A stretch of DNA of 63,909 nucleotides, counting the filler, from Sphaeroforma arctica JP610 (Eukaryota): assembly GCF_001186125.1 (NCBI RefSeq). It is 7 parts of 3 records of this genome, joined end to end, with 100 filler letters (N's around TTAATTAATTAA, not from the genome) between each part and the next. Parts side by side here need not be neighbours in the genome. Positions count along the whole stretch, not along the records: positions 30,318 to 53,148 come from NW_014040522.1; 6 more parts are not named here. One strand, 5' to 3'. Shown one piece after another: positions 318 to 47,969 of the stretch. The notes below the pieces were generated by a model that was not told the origin of the DNA, ran no database searches, and saw only the letters and a list, made by a program, of their open reading frames with translations. Made by a program: the position numbers and the translations under genes. How positions within the stretch are numbered: the first letter of the stretch is position 1; every line of letters begins with the position of its first letter.

Positions 318-3300
318 CTAAATACTCTGTTGGCCGGGTTGATTCGCAAAGCTCATGTTGGATGCACCACTCATGAATCCCATCTGCGATTGCTGCGACA
401 CAAGATTATCCTCTTGCCTGTACTTCTTCTCAGCAGCACGACGGCGCATAACCACAATACAAGCGACAACACAGCAGCAACAGCATAGGCATAGCAGCAG
501 AAGGGCAGCCACAGCTCCGCCAATGATCATCAGTTCGGAATCATCAGCTTGAGCAGCCGCAGTGGTACCAGCCGCAGTCCCAGCTCCAACAACGGCAGCC
601 TGGATCAGGTCCTCGGCTGTGTAGCGGACACCAGCTTCTTTGTCTACAGCCACCTCGCCAGCATCACGCGTAGTCAACCCATTGAGAGAACGACGGCGGC
701 GACCAGCTGATCCATCGTCGTAATCCACAAGAACAGTAAAGTTCATGGTGATAGCATTACCGGTACGATCGGAGGTTGCACAGGCCATCTGTGAAGTTAC
801 TTGGAAAGGCATGGAGATTGCTTGGGTTGCCGGTTTGTAGGTTTGACTGAACTCGGCGTTGTCGGTGACGTCGCCCATGTAGTCAGCGAAGCCAGAACAG
901 TCGCCGTCAGTGGTGCGTTCGACGTAGGTGACCTCGGCGTTGTACAGCGCAACTCCGCTTTCAGATGTATCAACGATGATCTGCCAGTATGACATGGTTC
1001 CAAGATCGAAAATAGACTCTTCCTCTAGGTATTCGTCGGACGCGTACACTGCGATCGACAGGTCAAACAGAGCATCGAGCTCAAACTCCTCCACCTCACA
1101 GAAATTGTTAGTATCGATAAAGAAGATGACCTTGGGCTGGAAGATCTGAGCATCAGTCAATGCGGGACACGCCTGGGGATCGCCATTCGCGTCCTGTTCC
1201 TGACAGGTCACGATAAGACCCTCAAGCGAGTACTCACCAGTCAGATCACACGTTACGATGTCAAACTCGACATTCTGAACACACTCTTTGCCGCTCGCCA
1301 CGTTATTGCAAGCAGCATCGAATACATAACTAGAAATGGAGCTTACTTCAGCCTCGAAACTTACATCTCTCATGCCAACCACACCTACTAGGCCTCCCTG
1401 GATTGTCATGGGAGAGGGCAGGTGAGTTTCCAAGCGAATCTTAGAATGATTCCATCCGTCAAAGAATCCCACATCCACCAAGTTGATAGCTGCCTCAATG
1501 TCGAACACAGGGGGCTGAGGTCCACACTGAGGGTCGGTTGAGTACAAGTTACACTCAGATGGGCAACCCTCATCCATGTCAGGATCACATCCATTGTGAC
1601 TACATGCGGGATCTGTGGAGTAAGGTGTGCACTCAACAGGGCAATCTGCATCAGCAGCAGGGTCGCAACCACCGACGTTACACGCGGGGGCGGTTGAGTA
1701 AGCGTGACAGCCTTGAGGACAATTGGGGTCTCCTGAGCTAGGATCACATCCGCCTGGGTTACAAGCAGGGTCAGTTGAATATGGAGAGCAGGTAACTGGG
1801 CAACCATCATTCAAAGTAGGATCACATCCGGGAGGATTACATGCTGCCGATGTCGAGTAGGGACTGCACTCTACCGGGCAGTAGGGATCGTTGACGGTGT
1901 CACAGCCTGGGTTGCAAGCAGGATCGGCGGAATATGGAGAGCAGGTAACGGGACAGTCGGCATCCACACCTGCAGTGCATCCTGGGGGATTACAAGCCGC
2001 TGCCGTAGAGTACGGGCTACACTGCTCGGGGCAATCAGCATCGACTGCTGGGTCACAGGCAGTGGGTTCTTCGCGAAGCATATATAGGTACGGGTCCAAC
2101 TTGATGGGGTTGTTATTCACCAGGATGGAGGCGACGATACCATCCCCATTGTGATCGTGATCATCAGTCAACGTAGCATCACCAATACGACTTGCAACTT
2201 CCATAGGCGCAATAACAGTGTAGTACTTAGGGGAAAGGTCGAAGAATATGAAGGTACCATCCTCCTCGGTTTTGGTAGTGGCCAAAACATTGCCCTGGGC
2301 ATCCCGAAGGTAGACCAAGACATCCTGGATAGGCTCAAGAGTATTCGCAATTCGAGTTGAACCCTCAATACTACCAAGATGAGTGACTGGGATGACATCA
2401 TACTTGAACGGAGGTACAGTCAGTGCTGTGTTGGGCGTTTCGTAAGCTGCCTTGGTATTGCCATCTCTGAAGCCATCTGGATCTTCAGCAAGGAATATTC
2501 CTCCTTGTAGATAACGAGGCACATCAACATAGTGGTCGCCGACCTCAATGTTGTCGAAGGTGTACTCTCCATTCTCATCGGTGAATACGAAACGAATTCC
2601 GGGATATCCGACCTCGGAAATAAGAATGACTGGAACATTTGGGATGGGGGTTCCATCTAACATCATCACACTTCCAGTGATAATACCTTCCTGTGTAAGT
2701 ACAAAATTGACGTCACTGATGGAGACACCCTTGTAATCAACAGGTGAGATACCGTCTAGAACTTTAGCACCGTCAACGTCATATTCATCATCATGCAGCA
2801 AATACTCGTCAGGCTTGGTCATAGTCACGGTATAAATGGCAGAATCGTACACCTCGTCGAAGAAATATATTCCCTCCTGATTAGTGAGCGTAGTGCGTAC
2901 GTCATCTCCATTAGTGAGAGTAACGGTGACACCTTCGATCATCTCGTTTTTAGTATTTCGTACATGACCGGTGATCGTTCCTGGTGGAGTGTAACCGAAG
3001 TTGACATTCTCGAGTTCAGTAGCAGGAGTCACGTAGATTGGGGTTCTTGTGCCGCTATTGGTAGGATCAAGGTAATCGTCAGTAAGCTGCTGTGTAAGAT
3101 CTTTGGGATTCTCGGGAGGAACCTCGATGATGTATTCCTTTCCAGGAGGAACTCCCTCGAAAGTATATGTACCGTCGGGGCCGGTCGTAGTTTCTTCAAT
3201 TACTTCGTTCGTCTCAGGGTCAATTAGTTTGACAACAACACCTGGAATAGGCTCGTCGGTAGTTGTGGTATAAGCGGTACCAGTAATGTTGCTCATGGGA

Positions 3301-5378: not shown

Positions 5379-8300
5379 AATTAAATGTAACTATGAGTTC
5401 TACCTGCACTTAGATCGAATGCGTAAACGTTGCTACGTGTCTGATATATATATTAAATTTGTACGTGACTCACGCATGCACACTTGCCCAGGGCCGCCCC
5501 TGGAGTCAGGCCAGCCATTGGTGTCAGGGACTCAGGGCAAAATACTATTTCTTTAAAAACATAGTTAAACGGTACTCCCTACATTGTTTTGTTTATTGTT
5601 TGATCATTTTTTTTAAGTATTTCTAAATAAAACATAGTGTTTTCCATACTATACTATATATTTTTAAATTTTTTAAACGAAAACAAACCAAAAAAAAACC
5701 CCTTTATAAAAATATTTTTTAAATTAGGAATTTTTATTGATAACAATATCGAATCATATTACTTTATTTTAGGCAAGTCACTCTAGCCTCCCTTGCAAAG
5801 TCCAAAAAACTCAAAGGACCAAGTCGACAAGAGGACTTTTTTTTGAAGTTAAATGTCTTTATAACAGTTAACAGTCAACAGTTTATCCATTTCTTTTTTT
5901 TATTCAAAAAAAACAAATATAAAAAAATCCTTATTTTCATATTTAAAAAAAACAGATATGTAAACTTTATATGTATCGGCCTACCTTTAACAGCTGTTTA
6001 TCATCCGCTGTATGTATTTAGTTATTAACTTATTGTAGCCTGTACAACAAGTGTACATGTCGCCAGTTTGCCACGGAAGCTTCGGTTCGGACTTCGAAAG
6101 ACTGGAAGGCGGAACCGGGAATACAGCCTCTGAGGCCTGAGCCTAGTTTTTACTTTTTACTTTTTGCACAACACTGACAACAGGGCGCAAGTCGGAACGT
6201 GTACTGTCACTGTGTAGTGTGTACATAGCACATATACAGACGACACACACACACTTACACAGTCACACACTGATGACACTCGGACTCAGAAGTGACTAGC
6301 TAGTAGCTAGTCACAAACTGATAACACTCAGATTCTCAGTCTGGCGGCTGACCGACAACAAGGGATTTTAGATTTTAACCAGCCATATTTACATGTGTAC
6401 GGTATCGTGATTTTTGTTTTGTTATTTTTCTTGTAACAAAAAGGACAAGAATAAACTAATACCCACACTCAAAAGAGTTCATGCATCTCTCTAGAGATTC
6501 TAGAGAGTGAGTTCTGAACTTCTGAACTTCTAGAAGGAGTGAACCAGCATACTCCTTTCGTCTTCGTACCTTTAATTGGATAGTTTTACAAACCATTTTA
6601 AACATTTAAACAAATTTACATTCCTATATTCTAAACAATCGCTATATCTGTATATCATAGGCCATAAGTCATTTATAAACACCTATTTGTTTTTCCTCAG
6701 CGGCTCAGCCTAGGGGCTGGGAGCCTGGGACTCTTGGCACTTGGGAATGGGAGGCTACGCGACTGAAAGTCAAAATAAAGTTTATTTGCTTTTTTTCTTT
6801 TAACACAGGGCATTCCAGCTCTTTAAATACACTGATTGAAGGGTCTTTTTAAAAACCTTAAACCCTAAAACTACCAAATATATGCACGTTGGACACGAAG
6901 AAATGATGTGACGTCATCAATTGTGAATTGATGTTTGACATGTTCTCTTCGAGGCTATGAGTAAAATCTGAAAGGCTAAACCTATGAGACCTACGTCGCC
7001 CAAGTACCGAACTGAAGATATTTCGTTTTATGAAATAAACAGCATCCCCTACCAGCTTCATGGGACCAACTCTCCTATAACGACAATTACCACAACTTCA
7101 TTGAGGGCGTACAGGTCGACAGACTTCCACCTGAAACCAGGTGTGACTCCGCGATGTATTGTGTATAAGCAGAAGAATTCCAAGCTGATGGCTTGGGAAG
7201 CGGAAATTTGCGATACGAACTATAAACGAGGTATAATTGAGCTCAGAGACTTCTTTAGCAAGACCCGCTTGTTGGCGGTCATCACGCGTAAAAATCCGAG
7301 AGTTGACTCCAAATCAGCGGAAGACATTGTTATTTCCCCGACTATTCGGTCGCGAACGAAAATTTCGACGTAGAACCGTACCCCTGCAAATGAAGGACGA
7401 GGGTCTTGGCCACCCTTGTAATGCCGACACCAGGTCATGTGTCAACATGGCATGCAGATTTAACCAACTTAAATATACGAAACGCTCCCGCAGGTACCAA
7501 ACATGTATCACGTCTAAAGATTATGTTTGGCAACCGATTGTAAGGTGATCGGGGTCAAACTGGGTTTCTTCTTTAATTTCCAGCTGGTCCTCTGTACCAA
7601 TACTTTACAACGAATGGGCCAGAAGATCCTTCACTTTGTCGACGAGGGTGACATGGTTGAGTCCAAGAATGGCCATTGGCACACGATGGAGTCGTACGTT
7701 GCCATAGCGTGGAAGCACAACATATGACTGTGTCTTTTGAAGACATACCTAAAACCCTACAACCCTTTATTATTTAATACCTTTTACATATTACCTAACA
7801 GATATTTGGACAAGACCATTAAAAGGCCCCAGTAAAATACCAAACATAAGATTTGGACTAGTTCTATTAATAGAACTATTTTTACTTTCCAAATCTATTT
7901 ATATCTGAATACTTCGGTAGCGAGATGACTCAACCGAACATAGGTTTCTAATGACTATTAGCGTTGCTTAGTTTATCCTCCGTTCAACCAACCAGATGTG
8001 CCAGTCTGACGAAGGCTAAGTCGGTAATTCTTGATAAGTGGCAAGTTATTGGTTAATGCAATAACTATGGACATCAGGAGTATTTTTTTCTTTCATCTTT
8101 TTAAATTTTCCGAGGATTGCGTTTTCTCGGCCTGTCCCTTTCGAGATTTTGCCTTCTTCGCTGGTGGCTTCTGTGGCTCCGTAGTCACATTACCTCCAGA
8201 TGAACCTACACCCAAGTCAACCAACTTCTTACGTTTCTGTTTAGTCAGAGTTGGTACCGGTTGTACCGGCGTGATCTCAGTTGCTTCAGATTCCACTGAT

Positions 8301-11237: not shown

Positions 11238-13268
11238 CTAGGATGCGATAGCAGATTTGCGGACATCGGCAATTTGGTCCCTACGCTGCTTCACGAGCCA
11301 GGTCTTGAGATCATTCTCGCAAAAAACGAGTTCTCCCGTATTCGTTGACCGTAACTGAGTTGAGATCGGGGGATTCAAACTTTCCAGGACAGCCCGCACC
11401 GCTTTGTCGAGCACCAATCCATCGGCACTGTTCTTACCTTCGCCTACTATGATTCTTGCAGACGGCGGCCTCGTTCCCTCCTGTGCATCGCCGTGGAGTG
11501 TCTGCAGTATGCGAAGTAACCTTCGCACAGCAGCTTGTGCTTGTAGCTGCGTGTGGTTGTGAAGATCAAGGACGCCTACCTTGTCAAACGTATTCCAGCA
11601 AGACCCATAGAGAGCGAACCTCTTAATCATATCCTCATATAACGAATCGATATGAGTATGTCCGCTGCTGATTGTCCCCAGTGCTTGCATAACGGCGTTG
11701 TATACCCCCGTGTCACGTTCGATACCTTTGATCTGCATTTGATCAAAAATCTCAATAGCTTTCATCCAGTCCTTCCCTTTCTCGCAGGCGGTTATAGCAG
11801 CACTGTATGTAAAGGTGTTGATTTCGACACCTTCGCATTCCATCTCACATAACAACTCAACAGCCTTCTCCGACTTTCCCACTCTCGCACACGCAGATAT
11901 GATAGCACTGTATGTTCTTGTATTGCGTACTATACCTGTACGAGCCATTTCATCGAACAATTCTATAGCTTTGCTCCACTGTGTCTCGTCCTCGCATGCA
12001 GAGATGGCTGTAGTGTACGTGATCGTATCCCGCTTGACATCTTTCCTGTCCATCTCATCGAAGACCTCCATTGCCTTCTCGAAATGACTACTCTTTTGAC
12101 AAGCGGATAATATAACGTTATACGTGATTGTATCTCGAACGCAGCCCGTGGCGCCCATTTCTTCAAACAGTTCCAAGGCTTTATTCGCCATTTCCCCTTT
12201 AACGCAGACGGATATCATTGTATTGTAAGTGATCGTGTCGCGTTTTATGCCTTTCCTTTCCATCTCATCAAATAACTCGATAGCTTTTCTAGCATTCTTA
12301 CGTGCTCCGCAGGTGGAAATGATAGTGTTGTAGGTGGTCGTGTTCGGTGCGATGCCGCTAGGCATCATCTCGTTGAATAAATTCATGGCTCTCTTGTACT
12401 CCCCTCTTTTCTCGCACGCGGATATCATCGTGTTGTATGTACCAGTGGTGCGTTCAATGCCCTTCCGGCCCATCTCATAGAATAACTCTTCGGCCTTCTC
12501 CGATTGCCCTCCACTCTCACAAGCGGATATTGCAGCACTATACGTGATGCTATTACCGGGAATACCCCTGCTCTCCATCTCGCTAAACAACTGCAGCGCG
12601 TCTATCCATCGGTCTAATTTCTTGTACGCAGTCATAGCAACAACGTACATCCGGGCATCCGGAGAGAACCCATCAGCAATCATATCTTGGAATAGAACCA
12701 CAGCCTCTTCGGCCTTCCCAGCCTTAATCAGCATCTGCATCACAGTAGTCCAGGTAATCCTGTCCGGCGTCACCCCGCGAACTCTCATATCGCCAAACAC
12801 CGCATACGCCGTTGCGTACCTTCTACTCGCACTCAGTGCAGAAATGCATGGGTTGTAATGATTGGCCGTGAGGGTATCCCCTTTTGCGCGATGGTACTTC
12901 AGCAGCGACAAACACCTATCAGGCTGGCGGTTCTCTTTGTATATACTCATTGCGTACTCACCATCGCTCGGACTTAGCTGCTTAGCGTACAGCAACTGGT
13001 CTACCACCAACGCCGCCTCTTTATAATTGCTGGTGCGTTTGGCATCCTGGGCCAACCGCTGCACTCCCAGTTTCTCATTGTACGGCGACTTGTCTCCCAC
13101 CAGCCCCGTTTCTTTATGTTGTCTGATGCGTTTGGCACCTTTGGCGGGCTGCTGGGCCGACTTCACTTTAGTTTGGCCGTGTTTGTGTCTATTTCCCGCA
13201 CGGCTCTTAGGTGGCTTGGTATGTAACGCAGCCGTTTGCGGAGAGCTGCTAGCCCTATCAGTCCCCTT
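11238..13268 (-). CDS. Pentatricopeptide-repeat protein with C-terminal SMR (MutS2/Smr) domain; 5' end runs into assembly gap
   Basis: About a dozen 35-aa P-type repeats (e.g. RDTITYNTMISVCVKGEMANKALELFEEMGATGCV); SMR motifs LDLHNH...AVRRLL and RIIVGEGKNS; reading frame stays open upstream to the N gap at 13269; no introns in visible part. Confidence 0.9.
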   Translation of the reverse strand, partial: KGTDRASSSPQTAALHTKPPKSRAGNRHKHGQTKVKSAQQPAKGAKRIRQHKETGLVGDKSPYNEKLGVQRLAQDAKRTSNYKEAALVVDQLLYAKQLSPSDGEYAMSIYKENRQPDRCLSLLKYHRAKGDTLTANHYNPCISALSASRRYATAYAVFGDMRVRGVTPDRITWTTVMQMLIKAGKAEEAVVLFQDMIADGFSPDARMYVVAMTAYKKLDRWIDALQLFSEMESRGIPGNSITYSAAISACESGGQSEKAEELFYEMGRKGIERTTGTYNTMISACEKRGEYKRAMNLFNEMMPSGIAPNTTTYNTIISTCGARKNARKAIELFDEMERKGIKRDTITYNTMISVCVKGEMANKALELFEEMGATGCVRDTITYNVILSACQKSSHFEKAMEVFDEMDRKDVKRDTITYTTAISACEDETQWSKAIELFDEMARTGIVRNTRTYSAIISACARVGKSEKAVELLCEMECEGVEINTFTYSAAITACEKGKDWMKAIEIFDQMQIKGIERDTGVYNAVMQALGTISSGHTHIDSLYEDMIKRFALYGSCWNTFDKVGVLDLHNHTQLQAQAAVRRLLRILQTLHGDAQEGTRPPSARIIVGEGKNSADGLVLDKAVRAVLESLNPPISTQLRSTNTGELVFCENDLKTWLVKQRRDQIADVRKSAIAS

Positions 13269-13368
13269 NNNNNNNNNNNNNNNNNNNNNNNNNNNNNNNN
13301 NNNNNNNNNNNNTTAATTAATTAANNNNNNNNNNNNNNNNNNNNNNNNNNNNNNNNNNNNNNNNNNNN
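13269..13368. other. Artificial contig linker N44-TTAATTAATTAA-N44 (also 30218-30317, 53149-53248, 55807-55906, 60174-60273, 62098-62197)
   Basis: Same 100-bp spacer design each time, with stops in all six frames. Confidence 0.97.
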
Positions 13369-33336: not shown

Positions 33337-36300
33337 ATGATTGTCAGAATATCATTGCATGCGGCTGTGTGGTGCCTCAGTGTATTTGGGGCGTGTGGAG
33401 CGCAGAAAATTTTGAATTTTGAAATCGGCTGGAAGACACTCATACTCTCATCTAACGCGGATTTGGCTCAATTGCCGGTAGGAATGGCGAAGGTAAGCTG
33501 GTTTTTTGTACATACTACCTTCAATTTTGAAAATGGCTGTAGTATCGTCGTTGATAGATTTGCCTTGAATTGCACTAGAAGTCTGATTTTCTTACAAAAC
33601 AACTGCTCAACCAGGCATACGGGGCGAATTATGATTTGATATCTGTCGACGCGCAAGGTGGATTGCAAATCCAACTTATCGACCCTGTCACATTAAAGCC
33701 AAAGTACAACTCAAGTAAGTCTACGTCTAACTCATCAATACTAGTTATTTCGGTGTCTATCGTACTTTGTCGCACCCGATAGGCGATATTTATATGTTCG
33801 CATCTGAGCTATATATCTGCTCGATCTATACTTCCAATGGTGTATGAATATGGAGGCATGTGTATCTAAACCAGAAATTTATGTTTAATATTCAAAGTTG
33901 TTCAGACATCTGCGACTGCCAATGGTTTGGGGGCTAAGCGAGCTATTTTAGACGACTATTGTGCAAAGTATAATGTGAGGAGGGTGATGCTCAACTCAGG
34001 ACCCATCGATGTAGGTGAGTGAAAGTTCTCCGGCATGCACTCGACCCATATTTTACGGAGTACATATTTTTATCAGCGGTGATTGCCGTCAAAACGCATA
34101 CAATCCCTTGAGATAAATACACTCCGTGCAAAATTCTATTCACAGCCGATGCAGCAATCTACGGACTCTCAGGGCGATTGAGCACGTCGGCAACGACGGT
34201 GCAATATCTGTACGACACTGCTGTACAGGGTGTAAGTAATGTTGTACGTTCGGGAGTGCCAATTAAAGTAGGTATGGAAACCGAGTTTGCTTCCAGTACA
34301 TTCTGGATCAACCCGGCATATATCAACACTGCCTTGAATAAGGACCAACATATTCAACCGTTGCTCAATTTGAACTTTGTGGTGACCAGCTCGGATGCAC
34401 AATACGTGACGGACCCCGTTGGCACTATAACGACCGCTTTGGGGGGGATAATCCATCGCACTCCCAGTACTGGCGTAGAGGTGATGTACTTTTTTATCAC
34501 TGCAAACGCTAACGGATTGCACGGGCCCACACTCGCGCACTCTTGGTTCCCCTGGGTTACAAAAGGCCTGTTCATGGGTCAAAGGAGGTTAGTGCTGGAC
34601 ACACAAATCGACGACTTCTACCTTGATAGCAAACTGTACAACACCGGACAACGGTATCGCACCACGGCAACAGACTATGCATATCACGTGACGGAACAGT
34701 ATAAGCTAAATGCCGCAAGTGCTCCTGGATCTAACTTCACGATACAGATGGCTTTCAATGGCAAAGGATACGACAGTCTCGCAAACATCTATGTGCCTGA
34801 TGTCAATCCGCAGAGCGTAGCTCAATTTGACAAGTTTCTTTGGCTCACACACACGTGGAATCACATCGACATGTACTGTATTCAGTCGACTTGTGCACCG
34901 AAAAGCACCTACATCGATCCACAACTGAAAGCTTGTCACGATTGGCGTGCATCTGCTTGTCCTTATACCGAGCCAGTGTACCCGTCTACGGGTTATACCC
35001 CTTACGAGTACCAGATGTATGAGCTTACAAGAAACATGCGCTTTGCTTCCACGGTGCTGAAGACCTCTGCTCATCCAAAAGTTTGGTCTCCGTACTCCAT
35101 TGTGACCCCAAGAATATCAGGACTTAATTACACCGAATCGATTAGGTATGGTTTTTATCTGATTCATGGGATAGTTTCTGCCTACCTATTGTCTTGACTT
35201 TCGGTTTCATAAATTAGCTGTTGATCGTAGTACTGCAGAATTGGGCCGAATTGGGTGGTATGTATTGGTCGTGGCGCACAAGTTTGTATAATGTGTCACC
35301 GTACTCATTTCTCAGCATACGATGTTCATGATAATCAGGGCCATGCTTGCAGCTGGACTTCGATTTGCGGTAGGCGATAATTCACGCGCAGACTTGAGGC
35401 CTGTAAATCCTTGGCACCCCTTCGTTGCAACTGCTAAGGTCGGAGCAACTGGCAACCTCCTCACAGACATCCAAAAGGCAAATTTCGAAACTGAGATGGA
35501 GCGGTTGTACGGTGCCAAGTCTATGGTGGTGATACCAAGATTCGCCACTGAGATTTACTTTGATACGGCTACCCAGCAACAACTGCAGAGTGAATTCAAT
35601 AGTTACTACGGACCAAAATGCTACGGCTATGATCAGAGCGCGTCAGCAACGGATGGTGGCTACAAATGCAACGTGAATTCATTCAAGTTTCCACGCGATC
35701 TGACGGCTACCGAGATTATTGGGATGGAGGGCTTCCGCACTGCGAGAAACTTACTTAACATGAGAGTCGACCCTTACATGGTAAGTTGCCTCTGCGATAT
35801 ACTATTGTACGCTCGCAGAGAATATGGCATTTTGATGTTGTGTTGATTATGACTGCGTCCATCTACAACCTCGGCTACTCTAAATTTCCACCCCCATTTC
35901 TAGTTTGATATCTAAGTTTGTTCATGTGTTCTTCATTATTCTTGTAATGTAAGGAAACAGTTCGGATTTTCACAGAGACAGGATTGGCACACACAAACTT
36001 TGCTATATAGCTGGTTGGCATTCTTTTCAATTGAATTGATGCGATGCTTAACACCTCTTTATTTAACTTTCATCGGGCACTATGATCACCCAAATCCGAA
36101 CCATCGGTTAACAGTACCATTTTGTGAAATGCCATCTAATCCACACCTTATACACAATTCTTCATAACAGTTTCACCAGGCCAACCTGGCAGTGGTCGAT
36201 GGTGTCAGCCTCCTCAGTCTATGGCTGCGAGTGGTTCAAAAGTGGCTAAACCTGTACGTAACCTTCCCCATCATCACATACAAAATGGACGATCTCGCCC

Positions 36301-38665
36301 TGTATTTCCTGAGGCGCAAGTTCAGAGATGAGTGTGGGTTGACGGCGTCGGTCAAATACGCAGGTGGATTGCCTACCAGTATGAGTGTGACCTCACAGGG
36401 AAGATGTACTGCCGTCTTGACGCACACCAAGACGGTGGACTCTGAATTAACCGCACCACGCATGGTTGGGACAAAGTATGGTGAGCACGACACCAATTAT
36501 TACTTGCCTTTGGTTACTCCCGGTAAGTCCACAGTGGTTAAATTGGGGGTGGCGGGGTGCAGCACATGCCAACTCCAACCACAGAGACCCAAAATGTACA
36601 TCTGGGATTGGGATGATATGGACGCCATAAAAAAGGCCTACAAGGATAGTGCAACGGGCCCAGTCTTTGCAGATACACTCAGTTTCTTACTACGAGAGTT
36701 GGTCAGATGGGGAGTGATGGATGGGAAGAAGTTCTCGGTCACACAGCAGACCCTCTTGCCTGGATCTGGTGATCGCAAAGACTATTTTACTATAGGATAT
36801 TACGCGTGGCCTTGTCAGGTGAGAAAATGCACAACTGTGTTGTTGTTTCGCGTCGTACTCATATTGGATGATTCTGCTGTAGTATAGAGATACAATCCGC
36901 CAATCTCTGCTTGTCTTTCGTCATTGTTCTCACATCTGCTTGAATGGAAACCCCTCAATTTAATAGGAAGCCCTGAAGTTGTATGGTTGGGGCGACGCAG
37001 TAGGACAATGCGATCCCCCACCCAATAACCTCTGCGTTGCTGACGCGCACTGGGGTAGTGTACCCTATATCGTTTGTGATGGTAAGTTGTTCAAAACAAT
37101 CGAATCTACTTTCAGTTCCCTGATTTTCAATAGTTTATCATCGAGGGAGATCATGTTCTTGCCATTTCTAAAACGATGTCATGCATATTGCAGGGATCCC
37201 GAACAGGGCGGCTTTCGACGGAACATCGAAGGATCATATGCAGCAGATGACAAGATCCGTAACGTCACTAGCCCTGCTATGGTTTTACAGTGATGATGAC
37301 AAGTATGCCCAGGTAGGCCCATATGTTAATAACTGAACTTAGCTTTCAGCTGTTTGCTCGTTACGTGAGTGCATCTAATCACACATTGAATTCCCGAAAC
37401 CCGCACTGGCACTCGCAAATGCATCTATGACGTCTACGCGGACCCGCACATTCAATGAGGTATCCCAATGCACCCTTCAATTAGATTGCTGCCGATCTGC
37501 TGCGGTACTTCTTCCTGGAGGCCACGACAGCGATGAATCCGAATCTGCAATGGGCACAGTACCGCCCGGGAATGCCCTTTGTTGGCTTTGTAAGTTCTTG
37601 ATTCTCATTGCGTACTTGTATAGCAATCGATCAGTGTGCAACATGAGTGATACTTCGTGTGCGCTACTTGAAGAAAACTCGGCGTATCGATCTTAACTTA
37701 TCGATCTACATTTTAATCACTTCAATCTTCTGGTGGGTGTCATACACTTTCGACCTATTTTTCAATTGGAATTTGAAACATCCAACTTATCAGGGAATCG
37801 TTGAGATGGGCCCTTGGTCTGAAATGCTGGACGCAGTTGCGATCATCAGGACGTCTAATTACTGGTCTGAAGCGGAGCATAGACAGTTGATGGATTGGAT
37901 GACTAACTTACTTCAGTGGTTAGAAACTAGCGACAACGGAAAGCTGGCAAGGTACCATCAGAATAACCATGCGACATGGTTCCACAACACGGCTATTGGC
38001 ATCGCACAACACGCCAAAGAGTATCACAGCTACGCCGCGAGTTTTGGACTACAGTTGCTCGCAGCTGTTCCTGCAATCATCAGATCGCAGATTGACAACA
38101 CTGGCTTGCTGCACGAGGAGGTCACGGTAAGTATTTTGTATATATGTATTAAGTTCTTGCTTTATTATGAACCGGCAGTCTTGATTCTATTTTCGATATT
38201 ATATTCACATACGGTCGCCATGAGTAGCTGATTTGTATCTCATTTGTATTTGTTCCTCCACAGAGGAGTAAGAGTATTCACTACCTTTGCTATACCTTGA
38301 CGCCATTCCTACGAATCCGAAGTATGGCGGAAAAGTCTTCGAATGGTAATTACTTTGCCGGTATTTCCGATTTGCTTCTGCAAGAGGCAATCAAGTGGAC
38401 TTACCCCTATATGCAACGGAGGGTGGCGTACCCATACAGAGACATAGATTTGGAATCCGGTTACTACAGTGATGTGTGGCACAGGTGTATGGAACCGGTG
38501 GCGCTCACCACCAGAATCTATCCCAGCCTCAAGACTAATAACGATATGGGTATTAGGATACAAAGGGACGAAGCTTATTGTGTTAATCCTCGCACATTCG
38601 GTCATCCCACGCCCACGTGGGACTTTAACACACTCGCTCTATTCGGTGATATCTCATGCTTATAA
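33337..38665 (+). CDS. Secreted multi-exon protein: Agd3-like (CE18) polysaccharide deacetylase fused to a PL5-like alginate lyase domain
   Basis: Signal peptide; CE18-like motifs LDTQIDDFYL, AFNGKG, WLTHTWNH, VGDNSRADL, IPRFATEIYFD, MRVDPYM|FHQANL (intron 35781-36170); lyase-like motifs SGDRKDYFTIGYYAWP, PYIVCDG, WMTNLLQWL..S..G, NNHATWF; both parts are linked within one exon (36171-~36818). Confidence 0.75.
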
Positions 38666-39192
38666 TCTACCGATAGCATGCGGATGGTAGATCGAATACA
38701 CAGTGACACCATCTTGCAACCTCGACACGATTCGAAGTGCGTAATCGATTTGATATTTCTTTAACAGACAAACAACAGTCTGAAACATAAAGTCTTGCAC
38801 ACCACTCTCAAATTGATACAAGCATCTTCAAGGTATTTGGTTGTTCAATGACTACACTGGCAGCCCATAGTATATCGCTACGACAGTTACGTTCGCTATG
38901 TTTGTTTTCATCGCTATGAAAGTTATAGTCGTGGACAGACTCGGGTTACAAAATGACAAACTTGAATTATCGTATCGACATTGTTTAGTTCGTATGTATA
39001 TCTGCACATCTGAATACCTGAAGTAAATACATTTTTGAGTGAATAAAATAGACACCACGTCGCCACCTGTACGTGATTCCAATGATACGCGTTGTTGACA
39101 TTATCTGCAATTATATCCATTGTACCATTGAGAGTATTCAATATTGGGATCTGGGGAGGCCTATTTGATGTATTGTCTAAATTTTCATAGCC

Positions 39193-39651
39193 TCAAGCTC
39201 GGAAAGTGGAAACCCCCTCTCTCGCAAGCTCCGGCGTGGACGGTTCCGTTAAGATCAGAGGATCCTCGTAAACTCTTCTTTCCAACTCGATCACGCGCGC
39301 CAAAACTCTGTCGCCAACGTCATAGTTTGCGATAAAGTCGAGGAATATCCGTAGCAACCAATCGATCACACAGGCAAAGACTGCGATACCGAACCCATTT
39401 CCGGGTATGGCGATGATATCTGCTAGGGCAAGAACCTCACTTATCCGGGGGGGGCGATCCGGACTCAGAATGTAGTCTTCAACAACGCAGATCATTTCCG
39501 AGTCTCCGTCCTTGAGTAATTTTTCGATCAGTTTGAAGAAATCAATTTCCGAGTCTCCACCCTTGAGTAATTTTTCGACGTAATCCACTTTCGACTCTGT
39601 TGGTTCACCTTCGGGATCCACTTCAGAGCCTACGTTGGTGTGATCCGTCAT
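39193..39651 (-). CDS. Hypothetical 152-aa acidic protein with internal 17-aa duplication, probably element-borne
   Basis: ATG ORF without introns; EKLLKGGDSEI...EKLLKDGDSEM duplication; TATAAATA ~40 bp upstream. Confidence 0.45.
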   Translation of the reverse strand: MTDHTNVGSEVDPEGEPTESKVDYVEKLLKGGDSEIDFFKLIEKLLKDGDSEMICVVEDYILSPDRPPRISEVLALADIIAIPGNGFGIAVFACVIDWLLRIFLDFIANYDVGDRVLARVIELERRVYEDPLILTEPSTPELAREGVSTFRA

Positions 39652-40316
39652 ATTTTTTTAGACTGATAATATTTATCTATCAACCTCTATATTTATACCG
39701 CTCACAAGTCACACATTTTGTTGCGAGACGTTTCGACATTTATAATACTTACCAGTAAGTCCCACCGCGTTCTACCAATAGACCTGGCACCTACCATTAG
39801 ACCTACCATAGTAGCTGGCGTCGGTGGCGCGTGAATCGGTAGGTTGTTGTACAGTGAGACAAATTTCAAGTTGTTGAATTTGTCGAGGCTTTTGCAATTA
39901 TGTGAGCGGACAAGTACTACCGTTCGTCCAAACGGCCCGGGTGTAATGGTACAAGCAAGTTGTGGACGTCAGGGCACCTAGAAAACACCCAAACGCTCGT
40001 CGTTTCCACGCTGCTGTTTACATTTCTTTTATTTGACAAGGTGAGTCCTCAAGTGAAATTTACTGTTCCGCACGACCAAGCGGAACGAATATTGAAAACG
40101 TTCAACCTAATTTTGTTGCGAGACGCTAATTTCGACATTTATAATACTTACCAGACTGGTGCTTCTGCGTTCGAGTACGTGTGCCTGTAAAACCCCAAAC
40201 CCTACGTTCTCTGTGAGCTCTGTGAGAGTTTTCCGACTGTAAAAAATGTGTATAAAAGGCGGGTGATTCACACGGCTTGCTTCACACTTTTGTCTTCTGT
40301 AAAGTAGAACAACCAG

Positions 40317-43300
40317 ATGTTGCGCCTGAACTACCCGATTAATAATCTCGATTCGACGGACACGTTGTATCGTCGTATGCGTTACGAAGACTTTGTCACT
40401 GGTCACCGGCTCATGTGTGAACATACTGTTGTGGAAATTGTCAGGAGCCGCGTTGACGGTCCGGGAACCCCAAACACCGACACCATAATGTTGGCCGCCA
40501 ACTCGACGAACTGGGACGATTTTCTTGCGCGTATGTTCTTCGATCCCAGCTCACCTTGGGGTTTACAGCCAACCACACGAGATCGGATGGCAATGATGAC
40601 GACGGTATAGGAACAACCACGAGATCGGCGAGTCAGTTTGGGGAGAACAAGGATGCGACGTGTGTATTTGATGCACTCATCACGACCGCCCAATTGGTAT
40701 CGAACCTCATACTTTCGCATAACGGCGTCCGAGCAAAAAAGTGTGGTGATGTACTGCTCAATATTCTAGTGCCACTAATTCAGCGTGAGAAAGAAAAGCA
40801 CCTGAGTTTGCGCAAAACGAAGGGTCTTAATGAACTTTTGACGAATCTGGCTGATCGAGCCAATATTTCAATCAATCTAGCGACCATTAACTTGAAAAGA
40901 TTGATGCATATCAAGCCGACGAGGGCGGCAGTATCATGGACGTCCCAGGATATCCGGATCAGGGAGTTGTTGAGCAAACACGTCCCCACCCGGCACCGTG
41001 TCTTTACCATCATGTTCATCGACGTCAATCAGGTGACACATATGAAGATGTCTTTGCGAGCCTATAGGGATCATGTCATGTACACGACGCATCTCGAAGT
41101 CACCAAAGAAGATATAGAGCTTTTGATGCGCAAACATACCGAAGATCCCTGGTCCAACCAAATAAATGCCATCAAGTACCATCGAGGTGGACAACTGGCG
41201 GCCATACATTTCAAGAATATATGGCTCACCACGGAGCTTATCAACATACGCCTCGTCAAGATCAAGGAGCAGTGCCTTGAAGTCCGCCTGGGGGGGCACG
41301 TAGCCCAGTTTGTGAAACTGGCATGCGCGGACTTTCTGAGCTAGAACATGACCGGTGTAGACGACAAGGACTGGACCACTCGGCCCATGGAATTACTTTA
41401 TGGTAACGTCACCAACTCGCGCGCCGTTACACCCAACAGTGTGTTACGTATTGGCGGTGAATCCATGTATATATCGACGCGTAAATTAGCCGCATATGAA
41501 GGCGTGCCTATCATCACGGACTTCCGGACCACAGACCGAATCTTAGGACCGAGTTTTTACTTGTACAAGATCATATCACACGTGAATCCGACCGTGTGGG
41601 AGAAAGTCGTAACCCCCATGGGTCTACATCTAGTGACGCACGTCGATTACTCTCCCGTCATTGTACAGATGCGACAACTGGGATATAGGATCCAGATCAT
41701 CGCCGGATGCTGGGAATGGCGCACTGTAGATTGCTTGGATGTGGTATACCGCCACAGTTTCACCGACTTGGGCCTAAAAATCGTGGACGATCACGATATA
41801 CCCGTGTATCGTAAAGTTTTTGAGATCTTGCAAGAGAGTGAAACTGACACCTATCGCTTACCTTCACATGCGCACGCTGAGGTTATGACTAAAACCCTAT
41901 AAAAAACCCCTAAGACCTTCCACTATGGCGAAACTATCAACGGTGACGCCGTCGTGGGCGTTAACACGACCAATGATCGGGTCTTTGTTGCCATTACAGC
42001 AACCGTCAAGTCACTGACGCGATTCGCTATGCTGGAACAATTGCAGACCCTGGTCCTGGGAGGCGCCACGTTGCTGCGCATATGTGTGGACGGTATTTAC
42101 TTTTCTAACCTCAACACTGCGCATATACATTGACCGTTCCGGATCAAGACTAGCACGTATATTCCGAACCTAGTACTGAACCTTGAACAGTCGACCAACA
42201 CGGACTCGGCGCTGCTAGCCCAGCACCACGAGTTGGACCCCACCGACGTTGATCGGCTCGCGGGGTCCATACATGTCTGCTGCAACATCAAGGGGCTTAC
42301 GCACCAAGACCAGGTCGACGCGTACCTGCAGTTTGCCGGGGAATCGGAACAGCCACAGTTTGCTTTGGAACACGTAAATATCCGAGAAGGTCCGGCCGGT
42401 ACCGGTAAATCGTACATGGCCGTGTTGGGGGATGTCGGTGTCATGCGCGAGTTGCACGGATCATTTCTGACCACCAACACCAACGCTTTGGTCAATGCAC
42501 ACAAGTCCAAGATATTCCATCACGGGGGGTGGGACGGTGTGTCCGTGACCAGCAACGAGGACGGTAATCCGACCATCAACCCCAGCACTCTCACCACCGA
42601 GTACGCGGCCGAGAACTTTGGCACTAACACGGTGCATATGTCGGCGTTTACATGCGACCGCACCCTCTCCGGTGCCAACGGCGGTGAATATAAATACATA
42701 TGGGACTCCTTGGTCAAGTTCATATACGAAGGATCAGGCAAACTGAACGGCTTTATCCCTAAAAGGTCGGATCGACACGAGTTTGTACGTATACTGAGGC
42801 TGCTGAACCTGTACAATGAAATGGCAAACGAGGTAAACTCGTGGAACACCGTGGACGAGGTCAAAGACGCATTCTTGGCTAAGATAAATGCCCGCGACGA
42901 TTCCAAAGAACCCCCGCACCCACTTGGTATCAAACCTTTTCTGGGCGGCCCGAAATCACATTCGGGGGTCCCGAATTGGTTTGATTGCAAGTACGTAATC
43001 CTGGACGAGTTTGCGATGCAGTCACCCAAGTTCGTATTGTGTCTCATAGCCAAGTTCTGGAATGCCAAGGTCTGACAGGCGACCCAGCCTACCAACTGGG
43101 TCATTCGTCTCTGAAGTGGATGGTCATCACGCGCAACTTGGAGTTGCTTAATTCAGCCAAAGTGTCCCGGTTGCCCAACATATCGTACTACCGATACACG
43201 ACCGTTCGGCGGTTCGATACCGGTGACCGTATCAACGAATTGGTAGCTAGGCTGATGGATATACGTACCGGGTTATCCGAAAACATCATCATCTCGGTCA

Positions 43301-43925
43301 GTTACCAGGAGTTCCAGATCAAGAGTATGCTCAAACAGTACTTCCCGGAAGTCCTTATCAAGCGCTCGGAGGGGCTCCAGCTATTCTACGATTCTCGGGA
43401 TTCGCACATGAATTATCTTATATCGGCGCGACGTTCGTGCCCGTACAACGTGTGTACGAAATGGGGTAGATTCTACAGTGAACCCGCGGAAGATGACAGC
43501 ATGCCCCGACTCACCGAGTCCCAGAGAGCCAAGCTACGCCTGAACTGCAATTGTTCGGGCATGAATATTATCCAGCAAGTCCGAGATGAACGCCCGGAAG
43601 ACAAGGTTATCTACAGGGCCAACAATATTGCTAAGATATGGTCATGTCCCGTACTCGAATGCAGCAGTTTGTGAATAGTGGTGTGCCCCAGGGTACCTTT
43701 GCGACTTGCTGTGGCTTTACCGTACATCAATTCCAGGGCGGTACCGTCGACCCTCCGAACACCATCATCTATCATCTATCGTCGGGATGGGAATACACAA
43801 GTGAGATACTCGACGATGCGACAAGAGTTCAAGACCTTCTTCGTGTGCTGCGGCTTTTCTACACATTTGTCAGTCGATGTAGAAGAATCTCCCAAATATT
43901 CGTCATTGACGATGCCCTGGAGTAA
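40317..43925 (+). pseudogene. Degenerate protein-primed PolB-like domain fused to superfamily-1B (RecD/Pif1-like) helicase, disrupted
   Basis: 40556-43075 is a single frame broken by three stops (41342, 41900, 42131); frameshifts at ~40550, ~43070, ~43670. PolB-like FVAITATVKSLTR and LRICVDGIYF (42074-42103); helicase Walker A GPAGTGKS (42389-42412), Walker B ILDEFAM, motif III TGDPAYQL, motif V TVHQFQGGT, motif VI YTFVSR. Confidence 0.8.
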
Positions 43926-43980
43926 GCAATTCGCTGCCTCTTTCGTGTTTCATTTATTTAAAGTATTTCTACATTTAACT

Positions 43981-45059
43981 CTAATCGTCAAGTCTGAGGC
44001 GTTTACGCATTGGTGCTGACATACCGAGCCGCGTAATTTGCACGTTGGCCAGATCAAGTTTGGTTCTGATCTCTCTCAATTCTTCGGCGTGCTTGTATTG
44101 ATCGTCGTCACGACGTTCAGAGATCAAGTTCAAGCGTTGTGACAAACGCGCGTTCTTCTCCTTCAAGATGACCTTCTCGTCTTTTAACACGACATTCTCT
44201 GCATCCAGAGTTTTCTTAATATCAGATGTATGCTCAAGGTTCAGCTTGAGAGTCTCGATGATGTGAGACAGACTGTGTGTCACATTCACGCTCCCCACTT
44301 CCTTAGCAATGTTAGTAAAGTGGCCCACTATACCCTGGAGCTTTTCGCGCGGAAGAGAAAATACTTCCGTCTGCCCCTCGTACATGAACGGCTTCGCGTC
44401 GTGGAGCTCGTGGAAAAGTCCTTGACTGCCTTCTCGGCCTTGGAAGCCAGTTCAGCGGGCATGTATATAACAGCCAGACGTTCCGCACCGGGGAACTTAC
44501 CTTCATGTGCAGTCAGTCGACGCATGATACTTGTTTTGGACATACCGAGCTTGACCACGACGTGGTTGTCGTCTGCGTCAGTGGGTACAGTGCACTTGTC
44601 CTGCAACTGCTCCACGGTCCCGACGAGGATGAGGTAGATCCCCATCTCAAAACAAACAGCCATTTCTGGAGGAATAGTCTTGGAGAGAGACTCCTTCGCC
44701 AGCTCGATAATTGCCACGTCGTCGCGCAGCATGAATGGGTGTAGGATATCCAGCATCCACTTACCATATGGCCCCTTCCTGTCCTTTCTACTTGTAAACA
44801 TGTACTGAACGAGCCCGTCTAGTGAAATGTAGACAGGATCAGTCGCGTCCGATCCGAATCGGAAACACAGCTCATCGTCAACTGATGCCTTTACAATCTT
44901 TGCCCCCATAACTACAACGAGCTTGGCCACATCACCAGCCTTGTAGAATGTACCGGAAACTGTACCGTCCCCAATGGTGTGCACGTCAAATACATCACCG
45001 TCACATGATACAAATAGTGTACTGCTACGTGTGGGTGTGTCCATACTTAACGTTTGCAT
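43981..45059 (-). pseudogene. Bro-N + T5orf172/GIY-YIG-like protein with coiled-coil tail (giant-virus type), one frameshift
   Basis: VYISLDGLVQYMFTSRK...KWML (Bro-N-like); GIYLILVGTVEQL...VVKLGMSK...RRLTAH; restoring one T at ~44415 gives KDFFHELHDAKPFMYEGQTE and joins the 44328-45059 and 43981-44385 ORFs. Confidence 0.7.
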
Positions 45060-45777
45060 TGTAGCGTCGTTGAAAAATCGGATTCGGATTCGTCAGATTC
45101 AGAGTTTGATTTGGATTACAATGCTTTTTTTTACGTTAACGGATTAGAATCGTTGTGAAAGTGACAGGGTGCTTTACCATTGCCCTTGAAGCGTAGGGTA
45201 AATGGTAGTCCGATGTGTAAATCACCCTGACGTATCAAACCGACGGGGTGCTATACCAGCGTAGGGTAAATGGTAGTCCGATTTGTAAGAAAGCAAGGGG
45301 TGAGCTGTGCGAATAGGCCCAGAGTGAGCTGAAAAGCAAGGGGACACGTAATTGCAAGAATCAACGCAAATTTGCAAAAACCACCGTCTGTGTCCGTTTC
45401 AAGCGGACACAAAATTATAATGTCCAGAGGCTTTAAACGTCTCTACTGCACACACTCCAACGGTGATACCACCCGAGTTACCGTTCGAGTCTGGTCTGTT
45501 GGTTCAAAGTTGCAGGGTGGTTTCTGCGCTGCTACCATTAAGACCTTGTCTGAGTCGTAGTTGGATACGTGACGTACGCCGCCATGGAGCTTGTTCAAGG
45601 GATGGGTGCACATGACGAGCCGGGTCGCGTCGTCGTGCTTTTGCATATGGTCCCTTTCTGGCCTTGCGTGAATTGTATATATATATATAAAAATAAATAA
45701 ATAAAATGTCACTCCGCATAATTGGTCGTGCGTGTTGTACCGCGCCGCTTTTGCGTGCAGATGTGCTACCAACCTCC

Positions 45778-46915
45778 TTTGACTACGAGGGTTTTTTTTA
45801 GCAGAAAATCAGCCAGAAAAGAACAGACAACTCGTACCGCGTGTTCAATGACATAAACCGTCTGGCTGAGCGCTTTCCCAAGGCCCGTGGTGGGGGACAC
45901 GCCGACATTACCGTTTGGTGTGCCAACGATTATCTAGGTATGTTGAGACATCCACTGGTTATCGATACGATGCGGCGGGTCATGTCGCTCCACGGCGCCG
46001 GGTCCGGTGGTACACGCAATATCAGCGGCAACACCCGCTTTCACCGCGAACTTGAAGCGGAGCTTGCGGACTTGCACCGCAAGGATGCGGCACTGGTGTT
46101 TACCTCGTGCTACGTGGCCAACGATACTACACTGCAGACGCTGGCCAAGCTTTTGCCTAACTGCATCATTCTGAGCGACAAACAAAATCATGCCAGCATG
46201 ATTGCCGGGATTCAGAATAGCCGCGCAGACAAGGTTGTTTTCAACCACAACGACACGAATGATTTGGAACAGAAACTGGCAGCGCTGGACCCTTTGCGAC
46301 CAAAGATTGTGGTGTTCGAGTCAGTGTATTCAATGTCTGAGGTCATTGCACCAGTTGACGAAATCTGCACGATAGCTCAAAAATACGGCGTACTAACGTT
46401 CATTGACGAGGTTCATGCCGTTGGTATGTATGGCCATGGAGGCGCCGGTGTAGGTGAGCAGTTGGGCAATCACGTGATGGACAAGTTTGATATTGTTGCC
46501 GGTACGCTAGGCGAAGCGTATGGTGTGATGGGAGGGTATATCGCTGGATCCACACGACTCGTGGATACGGTGCGCAGCTACGGGTCCGGATTTATTTTTA
46601 CAACATCGCTCCCCCCAGCCGTTGCATCTGGTGCGCGTGTGAGTGTCAAGCACCTCAAAACGAGTCAGGTGGAGCGCACTAGTCAGAGACGGCACGTGCG
46701 TGAGCTTAAGACACGGCTACACGAGTTGGGGATCCCAATAGCTGAAAACACGGGCCACATTGTCCCCATCTTGGTCGGCGACGCCAAGACTTGCCGTGCC
46801 ATTTCCGACACATTGCTGCAGAAACACAACATATACGAGCAGAGCATCAACTATCCCACGGTACCTGTGGGACAGGAGCGGCTGCGCGTTACCCCAACAC
46901 CGGCACACACCCCTG
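45778..46915 (+). pseudogene. ALAS: Intronless 5-aminolevulinate synthase pseudogene
   Basis: FDYEGFF*QKI..SYRVFNDINR, VWCANDYLGM, GSGGTRNISG, NHASMI, FESVYSM, DEVHAVG; in-frame TAG at 45799; PLP lysine motif GTLGKA changed to GTLGEA; no transit peptide; similarity ends after TPTPAHTP. Confidence 0.88.
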
Positions 46916-47969
46916 GACACGTTCTCGGACGCTCACTGTGCGGTAAAAAATTAGCTTCAGTGTAGGGGCGAAAAGACTCAGACTCACAGAGCCCGAGTGA
47001 AGAAAAAAAATTGAAAAAAAGGTGATTTTACATTTGGCATGAAATAAAGGCATTTTTCGATTTGGTATGAAAAAAAGGCGATTTGACATTTGGCATAAAA
47101 AAAATGGTAAATATGCCACTAAAAAAAGAGTATTTCCAAATACGCGCACTCTAGCAGAGGTCGCCGCCAATACCTGAGGCACGTCATTCAAAGAAACGCC
47201 CAGCTATGGAACGAGCAACACGGCACTCGCTCGCCGAACCATCCCGAGCTTATCGCTCCTTGCATACTTCAGCTCTCGCAAGCCACGGATGTCGATGAAG
47301 CTGGCGAGCCCTATTGGTGACTTTCTGGCTCATTGGCGCCCGCCGGGTAGCAAAAAAAACTTTCGGCCCTAAAATACTTTCGTAGTTGAGCAAGCCAGCC
47401 ACACGCTATTTGATATCTCAACAGGAAAAAAAAGGAAGAATATTTCAATAAATCAAATTCATCTCACGTTCTCTAGATCGACAGACGTTCGACTTCCTCA
47501 ACACTCACCTGACCGATGCGATACTTCCCCCCCCTCCCCCATACCTCTCCAAGTCCGGCTATGGTCCATCAATAGCATGTAAGACCCCCCCCCCCACAGC
47601 ATCGTGTTAATTAAAAAAAGTATTTCGTTCGTCGTTCGTGCATGACACGCACGTACAATCGCTGTCCAAAACACACAGTGACATGCATTTTGCTATAGGA
47701 CATCATAAGTCACACTTTGAGCACCGGCAGGCTTCTCTGAAACCCAATCGCTGCCTTACTCGCCACATTATAGAATCAGGATGAATCACCAGTATCGTAA
47801 GGTCAGCAGTTCTTGGATGATGCCTAATTACTCCAGAAATTTGCGCGCAAGTAGGTTTTAGCGAAACAAAGCCCTCATGGGGGAAAATCTTTGCAGAACA
47901 TGCACAACCAATTGAGCACGAACCTTTGCCAACAGCAGCAGAGGAAGTCTTTCGAGCAAGTCGTGGCTA

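What the first reader, a model, noticed from the sequence alone, without database searches (positions are those of the whole stretch)
40317..43925. Degenerate pPolB-SF1 helicase fusion: relic of a Polinton-like virus/Tlr1/transpoviron-type element
Six ORF pieces join into one ~1200-codon gene. Upstream of a full set of SF1B helicase motifs lie PolB-palm-like segments (AITATVKSLTR resembling 'ITAyaR'; RICVDGIYF resembling 'YxDTDS'), including a stretch (41903-42232) missing from the ORF track. Fusion of an inactivated pPolB with an SF1 helicase is an established hallmark of some Polintons, PLVs, Tlr1 and transpovirons. The PolB assignment rests on short motifs and is inference. Such an element in this host may represent an undescribed lineage.
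Basis: partly seen in the sequence, partly recalled or inferred. Interest (0 to 1): 0.8.

Follow-up and report, generated by a model that had tools for sequence, protein, structure and literature searches.

The report
Broken viral replicase carrying heme enzyme
A single-celled relative of animals holds several decayed copies of a small virus-derived element whose DNA polymerase-helicase gene is of a known type, but which likely also carried a captured copy of the host's first heme-making enzyme stripped of its predicted feedback controls.

Summary
Observation confirmed. 40317-43925 is a pseudogene (3 stops, 3 frameshifts) of a Tlr1-like protein: a protein-primed PolB palm fused to an SF1 helicase. 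The palm matches a family of metagenomic Polinton-like-virus (PLV) proteins (E 1.6e-17). A model folds like phi29 polymerase. No Pif1 or Helitron profile hits.

Correction: 'inactivated' is not supported. The motif A Asp is invariant in the family and present in a sister copy; current literature predicts these palms are active.

The host is an ichthyosporean. The gene lies in a multi-copy stretch of about 8 kb (about 39.2-47.1 kb) with a Bro-N/T5orf172-like gene and an intronless 5-aminolevulinate synthase (ALAS). ALAS also lies beside the helicase at a second locus. It groups with ichthyosporean ALAS on a long, purifying-selected stem and lacks the host enzyme's three N-terminal Cys-Pro heme motifs.

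No capsid, ATPase or terminal inverted repeat was found, so PLV versus transpoviron-like is open. The replicase is a known kind; the ALAS cargo is the new part.

The parts
40317..43925 (+). Pseudogene of a Tlr1-like pPolB-palm/SF1 helicase fusion, about 1200 codons in seven segments
40317..40610 (+). N-terminal piece, no homologue found; join to the rest inferred
40640..41341 (+). Region at the position of the vOTU domain; a Cys (40661) and a His (41039) in motif-like context, but no statistical match
   Evidence: 611 of 1000 shuffles score as well
41444..42172 (+). Protein-primed PolB-type palm; motif A at 41450-41470 (Asp position is Gly here, Asp in a sister copy), motif C at 42080-42100; stops at 41900 and 42131 lie inside
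42389..43877 (+). SF1 helicase: Walker A 42389, Walker B 42998, motif III 43078, motif V 43719, motif VI 43860; about 135 residues more between Walker A and B than in the metagenomic family
43981..45059 (-). Bro-N/T5orf172(MUG113)-like gene with a coiled-coil tail, frameshifted near 44413
   Evidence: feature score 0.93, 165 of 256 features: a lead; table 4; no Pfam hit to these families
45706..46934 (+). Intronless eukaryotic-type 5-aminolevulinate synthase with a short N-terminus; this copy is broken (stop 45799, PLP lysine position Glu at 46513, frame change at 46912)
39193..39651 (-). 152-codon ORF divergent from the replicase, no family; partly shared with another copy
39715..40154 (.). 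Upstream intergenic region with a 41-45 nt direct repeat about 400 nt apart; another copy joins 39707 to 40109
47012..47135 (.). High-copy repeat with three 28-nt units at the right edge; terminus of the element or an unrelated repeat
   Evidence: depth 800-3000 against about 57-70 in the flank in X1 and X6

Best explanation
This is a broken copy of a polymerase-helicase fusion gene of the Tlr1/Polinton-like-virus type, lying in a multi-copy stretch of about 8 kb in an ichthyosporean genome that likely was a small mobile DNA element carrying a captured host 5-aminolevulinate synthase. Shown: palm and helicase homology, the lesions, several diverged copies, and ALAS beside the helicase at two loci. 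Inferred from the family (PMC11161782): the intact protein would have primed synthesis at the ends of a linear genome and copied it with its own palm while the helicase unwound the template, with no proofreading domain. Inferred: the element took ALAS from a Sphaeroforma/Creolimax-like host and kept it under purifying selection while losing the Cys-Pro heme motifs and the C-terminal tail, which would predict heme synthesis freed from feedback. Copies then entered the host genome and decayed separately.
For: Family profile hits 41444-42172 through two stops, E 1.6e-17; profile-profile probability 98.1. Model palm pLDDT mostly 70-90; the top 7 PDB hits are phi29 polymerase, best E 3.5e-4; Z 11.8 over residues 217-516, and SF1 helicases (Dda Z 9.3) over the C-terminal part. 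An A32-type ATPase lies beside the homologue on 9 of 14 viral contigs. Copies: two more loci by gene models; contig depth 2-6 times the flank over 39.8-46.9 kb. Sister copy: sense codon at the 41342 stop, Asp at motif A, 11 non-synonymous to 2 synonymous codons. The element ALAS clade joins ichthyosporean ALAS at 100/100 with a stem of 0.56. Of 39 changes shared by the three copies, 4 hit invariant columns, against 140 of 308 columns invariant, p 7e-7; private changes hit 9 of 24. Cys-Pro motifs in the N-terminus: 0 in both copies that have one, against 3 in two host enzymes.
Against: No terminal inverted repeat, target duplication, capsid, ATPase or integrase was found in the window, so element limits rest on read depth, which the tool says is no copy number. 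The vOTU domain was not detected. The fold was predicted with an alignment of homologues, so it leans on the family; the single-sequence model was useless (pLDDT 31). ALAS linkage at the second locus rests on accession order and contig length, not on DNA. A segmental duplication of host DNA would also link the genes. Purifying selection on the ALAS stem could have acted in an unsampled host. None of 17 fetched loci (14 contigs) of environmental relatives carries ALAS. Loss of the C-terminal tail need not activate: it is inhibitory in human ALAS2 but reported as positive in yeast (search listing).
Confidence: 0.7

Rival explanations
1. The replicase and Bro-like gene are a viral relic, but ALAS is a host retrocopy or paralogue that happened to lie beside it, and the block was then copied by segmental duplication.
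For: ALAS is of host type. No environmental relative carries it. No element ends were found. A Gypsy-like relic lies just to the right.
Against: The intron-split host gene on the left is single-copy up to about 39,170 and depth falls again after 47,186, so host flanks were not duplicated. The lesions checked are private to this copy, so copies separated before decay. The ALAS stem is several times longer than the host branches and was under constraint.
Confidence: 0.17
2. The stretch is a fragment of an endogenous giant virus (Nucleocytoviricota) that carried a Tlr1-like replicase, for example an integrated transpoviron, together with Bro and ALAS genes.
For: Bro-N/T5orf172 look-alikes are often from Nucleocytoviricota. 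Giant-virus gene islands are reported in S. arctica (PMC5294986 passages).
Against: No giant-virus core gene was seen among the 26 ORFs scanned. The repeated unit is only about 8 kb. The best replicase look-alikes are mostly Preplasmiviricota where a eukaryotic-virus phylum is recorded. PMC11244446 found no reliable ViralRecall hit in S. arctica (passage).
Confidence: 0.09
3. It is a living, domesticated host gene whose stops are removed by introns, as the public gene model (P0002) assumes.
For: A public model skips the stops with GT-AG gaps and gives 785 aa.
Against: The second gap removes the end of motif C, whose Gly is invariant in 118 of 118 relatives. The full read-through scores higher against the family than the spliced model (58.4 against 47.2 bits). 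A sister copy has a sense codon at a stop, and differences look neutral.
Confidence: 0.02
4. It is a Helitron Rep-helicase or a cellular Pif1 that has captured host genes.
For: Helitrons capture host genes and lack terminal inverted repeats (general knowledge). Candida Pif1 appears at Z 7.5, rank 46.
Against: No PIF1 or Helitron Pfam family at E up to 0.1 in the pieces, or up to 1 in the paralogue models. The upstream domain is a PolB palm, not an HUH nuclease.
Confidence: 0.02

Closest known systems
[quoted passage not shown]
   Same: Palm with motifs A and C (one Asp in C) directly upstream of an SF1 helicase, no exonuclease seen, 1000-1400 aa.
   Different: Only 22-26% identity to the nearest palms and a branch of about 3.5; long insert between Walker A and B; no C-terminal HNH or GIY-YIG; vOTU not detectable; pseudogene.
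Metagenomic PLV-like family of P0008 (813 proteins at E up to 1e-10; 14 IMG/VR contigs of 6-26 kb)
   Same: Collinear palm and helicase motifs.
   Different: 9 of 14 contigs show an A32-type ATPase in the fetched flanks and none shows ALAS; the window has neither ATPase nor the other shared genes.
Mimivirus transpovirons (PMC7031253 passages; PMC5499653)
   Same: About 7 kb, few genes, Tlr1-like helicase, no capsid genes, a small divergent gene upstream.
   Different: No 380-520 nt terminal inverted repeats and no Zn-finger gene found here; lies in a host genome; carries ALAS.
Viral ALAS auxiliary metabolic genes (PMC13390420 passage; 584 of 600 scanned IMG/VR stretches confirmed)
   Same: Virus-borne ALAS is known.
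   Different: Those are 49-56% identical to this ALAS; none of the best 80 lies near a Tlr1-like replicase or PLV-type ATPase. This one is eukaryote-derived, 80% identical to the host's enzyme.

Membership tests
Tlr1-like pPolB-S1H protein | PolB palm of the protein-primed type | tested here: met
   (model built with family alignment); TPR1/TPR2 not delimited
Tlr1-like pPolB-S1H protein | SF1 helicase C-terminal to the palm in one gene | tested here: met
Tlr1-like pPolB-S1H protein | Catalytic Asp in motifs A and C | tested here: met
   motif C Asp in this copy; motif A Asp only in a sister copy
Tlr1-like pPolB-S1H protein | vOTU protease upstream of the palm | tested here: inconclusive
   no score above shuffles; Cys and His present by eye
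Tlr1-like pPolB-S1H protein | Helicase in the Tlr1/PLV/transpoviron clade rather than Pif1 | tested here: inconclusive
   no PF05970 hit and motif match to the PLV-like family, but no tree with named references
Polinton-like virus | Double jelly-roll capsid gene and packaging ATPase | tested here: inconclusive
   none in the window with small profiles; other copies not visible; 3-4 capsid hits per S. arctica assembly in the PMC10120064 supplement, link unknown
Polinton-like virus / transpoviron / Tlr1 | Terminal inverted repeats | tested here: not met
   none between 38.6-40.3 and 45-47.8 kb in this decayed copy
Transpoviron | About 7 kb, no virion genes | tested here: inconclusive
   fits this copy; truncation cannot be excluded
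Transpoviron | Propagation with a giant virus | not testable with these tools
   no data
Tlr1 element / Polinton | RVE integrase | tested here: inconclusive
   no hit among the 26 ORFs scanned; the whole window was not scanned for it
Helitron | HUH Rep domain fused to a PIF1 helicase | tested here: not met
5-aminolevulinate synthase | PLP fold-I core with active-site lysine, grouping with ALAS | tested here: met
   lysine intact in P0249 and P0250, lost in the window copy

The most novel reading that the evidence does not exclude
An undescribed, capsid-less, transpoviron-like element of about 8 kb in ichthyosporeans, with an active protein-primed polymerase-helicase, that captured the host's ALAS and trimmed off its heme-feedback motifs to drive heme synthesis: a metabolic reprogramming gene on one of the smallest kinds of eukaryotic DNA parasite.
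Probability: 0.35. Interest if true: 0.8.

Novelty: new variant of a known kind. Interest (0 to 1): 0.55.

Why it matters
The fusion protein is known, but this lineage is far from all sampled relatives and sits in a close unicellular relative of animals, where my searches found only capsid-gene hits reported (PMC7805220, PMC10120064). If ALAS is cargo, a PLV-derived element carried a rate-limiting metabolic enzyme taken from its host and pared of its control motifs. I found no report of that in searches. A near-intact paralogue (P0250) makes the idea directly testable. The sister copy's motif A Asp also agrees with the 2024 view that these palms are active.

Tried and rejected
No whole genome was held, so other copies were seen only as gene models and laid contigs.

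Single-sequence fold: pLDDT 31, not used.

No match for the replicase in PDB sequences, PHROGs (nothing under E 0.1), the phage collection, viral contigs by the single protein or metagenome contigs. No close viral relative of the ALAS or the Bro-like gene.

vOTU profile: not above shuffles. The first motif-order test had a mistyped motif III pattern and missed the real locus; it was corrected.

The palm tree cannot place the lineage: one very long branch, no named references (the first attempt failed). The top viral fold hit, H6WBE3 (999 aa, E 7e-9), has no name in the tool and no paper hit.

No RNA holder was listed, so expression is untested. Two short relatives without ATPase (L005, L010) show no terminal repeats. 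Earlier-findings look-ups returned nothing.

Full report
Observation. Three-frame translation shows a gene of about 1200 codons from 40317 to 43925 in seven segments: stops at 41342, 41900 and 42131, and frame changes near 40600, 43070 and 43620-43635. Pfam gives only faint P-loop hints. Five SF1 motif words, present together in 103 of 118 relatives, occur in order across the frame changes; 0 of 200 shuffled windows do this. Laid contigs match this copy without a difference over 37500-40391, 40845-41502 and 44926-45503.

Host. The only near-length database hit is a gene model identical in every aligned residue, named by its source as a Sphaeroforma arctica protein. The host is therefore an ichthyosporean. 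That model skips two stops as introns and drops the end of motif C, so I read it as an annotation artefact.

Identity of the protein. A search of 1.84 billion representatives gave 5 hits: 4 gene models from two other loci of the same species and one metagenomic protein, E 1.4e-5. The full-length cluster mate of that protein (1094 aa) has 813 relatives at E up to 1e-10 among 4562 candidates. A profile of 118 of them hits the window at 41444-42172 (E 1.6e-17) and 43851-43919; the next hit has E 4.6. Control: 61.3 bits against a best shuffle of 3.6 in 1000. On viral contigs the homologue has an A32-type ATPase in the fetched flanks in 9 of 14 distinct contigs (cluster; Pfam-confirmed for 3). An AlphaFold model built on that alignment has a confident palm. 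Its top 7 PDB hits are phi29 polymerase, most named top viral hits are protein-primed PolBs, and an all-against-all fold search gives phi29 at Z 11.8 (rmsd 4.4, 244 aligned) and SF1 helicases for the rest. The model leans on the family alignment; the link between window and family is independent of it. Atlas features of the gene model point to viral SF1 helicase clusters (0.92-0.96). PIF1 and Helitron families were not hit. The vOTU domain expected upstream was not detected. In a palm tree the two host copies sit about 3.5 changes per column from 32 relatives.

Active or inactivated. The 2016 paper called these palms inactivated (PMC5499653, parts 1-3 of 5 read). The 2024 paper predicts they are active (PMC11161782, passages and section 9 read). 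In the family the motif A and motif C aspartates are each invariant in 118 of 118. This copy has Gly at motif A, but a sister contig, about 91% alike over 201 bases, has Asp there and a sense codon at the 41342 stop. The 13 differing codons are 11 non-synonymous and 2 synonymous. The damage is thus later decay, not an ancestral design.

The element. Contig depth is flat at about 57 up to 39,169, 2-6 times higher over 39.8-46.9 kb and back to about 42 after 47,186 in run X1; three other runs agree in shape (summed contig depth is not a copy number). Inside lie a 152-codon divergent ORF, the replicase, a frameshifted Bro-N/T5orf172-like gene (a lead at 0.93) and an ALAS at 45706-46934. No terminal repeats, ATPase or other shared PLV genes were found. 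Published screens report novel capsid genes in S. arctica (PMC7805220 passage) and 3-4 hits per assembly (PMC10120064 supplement rows; that file was cut when stored, so contig annotations there may bear on this locus). PMC11244446 (passages) mentions few polinton-type viruses in this species. I could not link any capsid gene to this element.

The ALAS. The species has a 559-aa ALAS, 80% identical, and three gene models 93-96% alike among themselves. In a 36-row tree the three copies form a clade (100/100) joined to Sphaeroforma/Creolimax-type ALAS (100/100) on a stem of 0.56; host monophyly beside them is weak (84/36). Changes shared by the copies avoid columns invariant in 10 cellular enzymes (4 of 39, against 140 of 308; p 7e-7), while private changes do not (9 of 24). 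The two copies with an N-terminus have 42-49 residues before the core and no Cys-Pro motif; two named host enzymes have 140-151 residues and three motifs. In mammals such motifs mediate heme block of import and heme-dependent degradation (PMC9329541 passages); that they do so in ichthyosporeans is inferred. The copies also end about 20-25 residues earlier than the host enzyme. The window copy is dead (stop, lost PLP lysine, frameshift); P0250 keeps the lysine and the whole core. Being intronless is weak evidence: I did not see the host gene's DNA, and two long host-type ORFs in the window are also unbroken.

Mechanism. Shown: architecture, homology, decay, several copies. Inferred: protein-primed replication of a linear DNA by palm plus helicase; capture of host ALAS, constrained evolution with loss of feedback motifs; repeated insertion; separate decay. 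How it inserted and whether it had a capsid are unknown.

Novelty. The replicase is a new, distant member of a known kind (about 0.95). ALAS as cargo I put at about 0.75. ALAS is known on viral contigs (PMC13390420 passage), but none of the best 80 such loci has a PLV-type replicase or ATPase, and searches showed no report of ALAS in a PLV or transpoviron. One preprint on algal-virus tetrapyrrole enzymes has no ALAS term. Most subscription papers are outside the library. Verdict: new variant of a known kind, interest 0.55.

Noticed in passing
window 47012-47135: Short repeat at very high depth (tens of times the flank) with three 28-nt units and varied flanks; contigs join 40002 to 46972 and 45399 to 47025, as if deletion derivatives of the element exist.
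   Followed up: partly
window 45130-45480: Intergenic region with a 31-nt direct repeat and several joints to the ALAS region in other copies; possible origin or rearrangement hot spot.
   Followed up: no
window 49276-50600: Repeated FRALIDTG words resembling a retroviral-type aspartic protease of an LTR retrotransposon relic (resemblance recalled).
   Followed up: no
window 34112-38665 +: Intron-split Agd3-type polysaccharide deacetylase and alginate-lyase genes, unusual for a holozoan.
   Followed up: no
window 318-5390 -: Unbroken 1690-codon ORF for a likely surface protein with SdrD/prealbumin-like repeats, Cys-rich repeats and a C-terminal membrane segment.
   Followed up: no
window 11238-13316 -: PPR protein with a weak C-terminal Smr domain, unbroken ORF.
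   Followed up: no
L005, L010: 6-7.5 kb viral contigs labelled GVMAG with a Tlr1-like replicase and no ATPase cluster member; possible transpoviron-like elements; no terminal repeats.
   Followed up: partly
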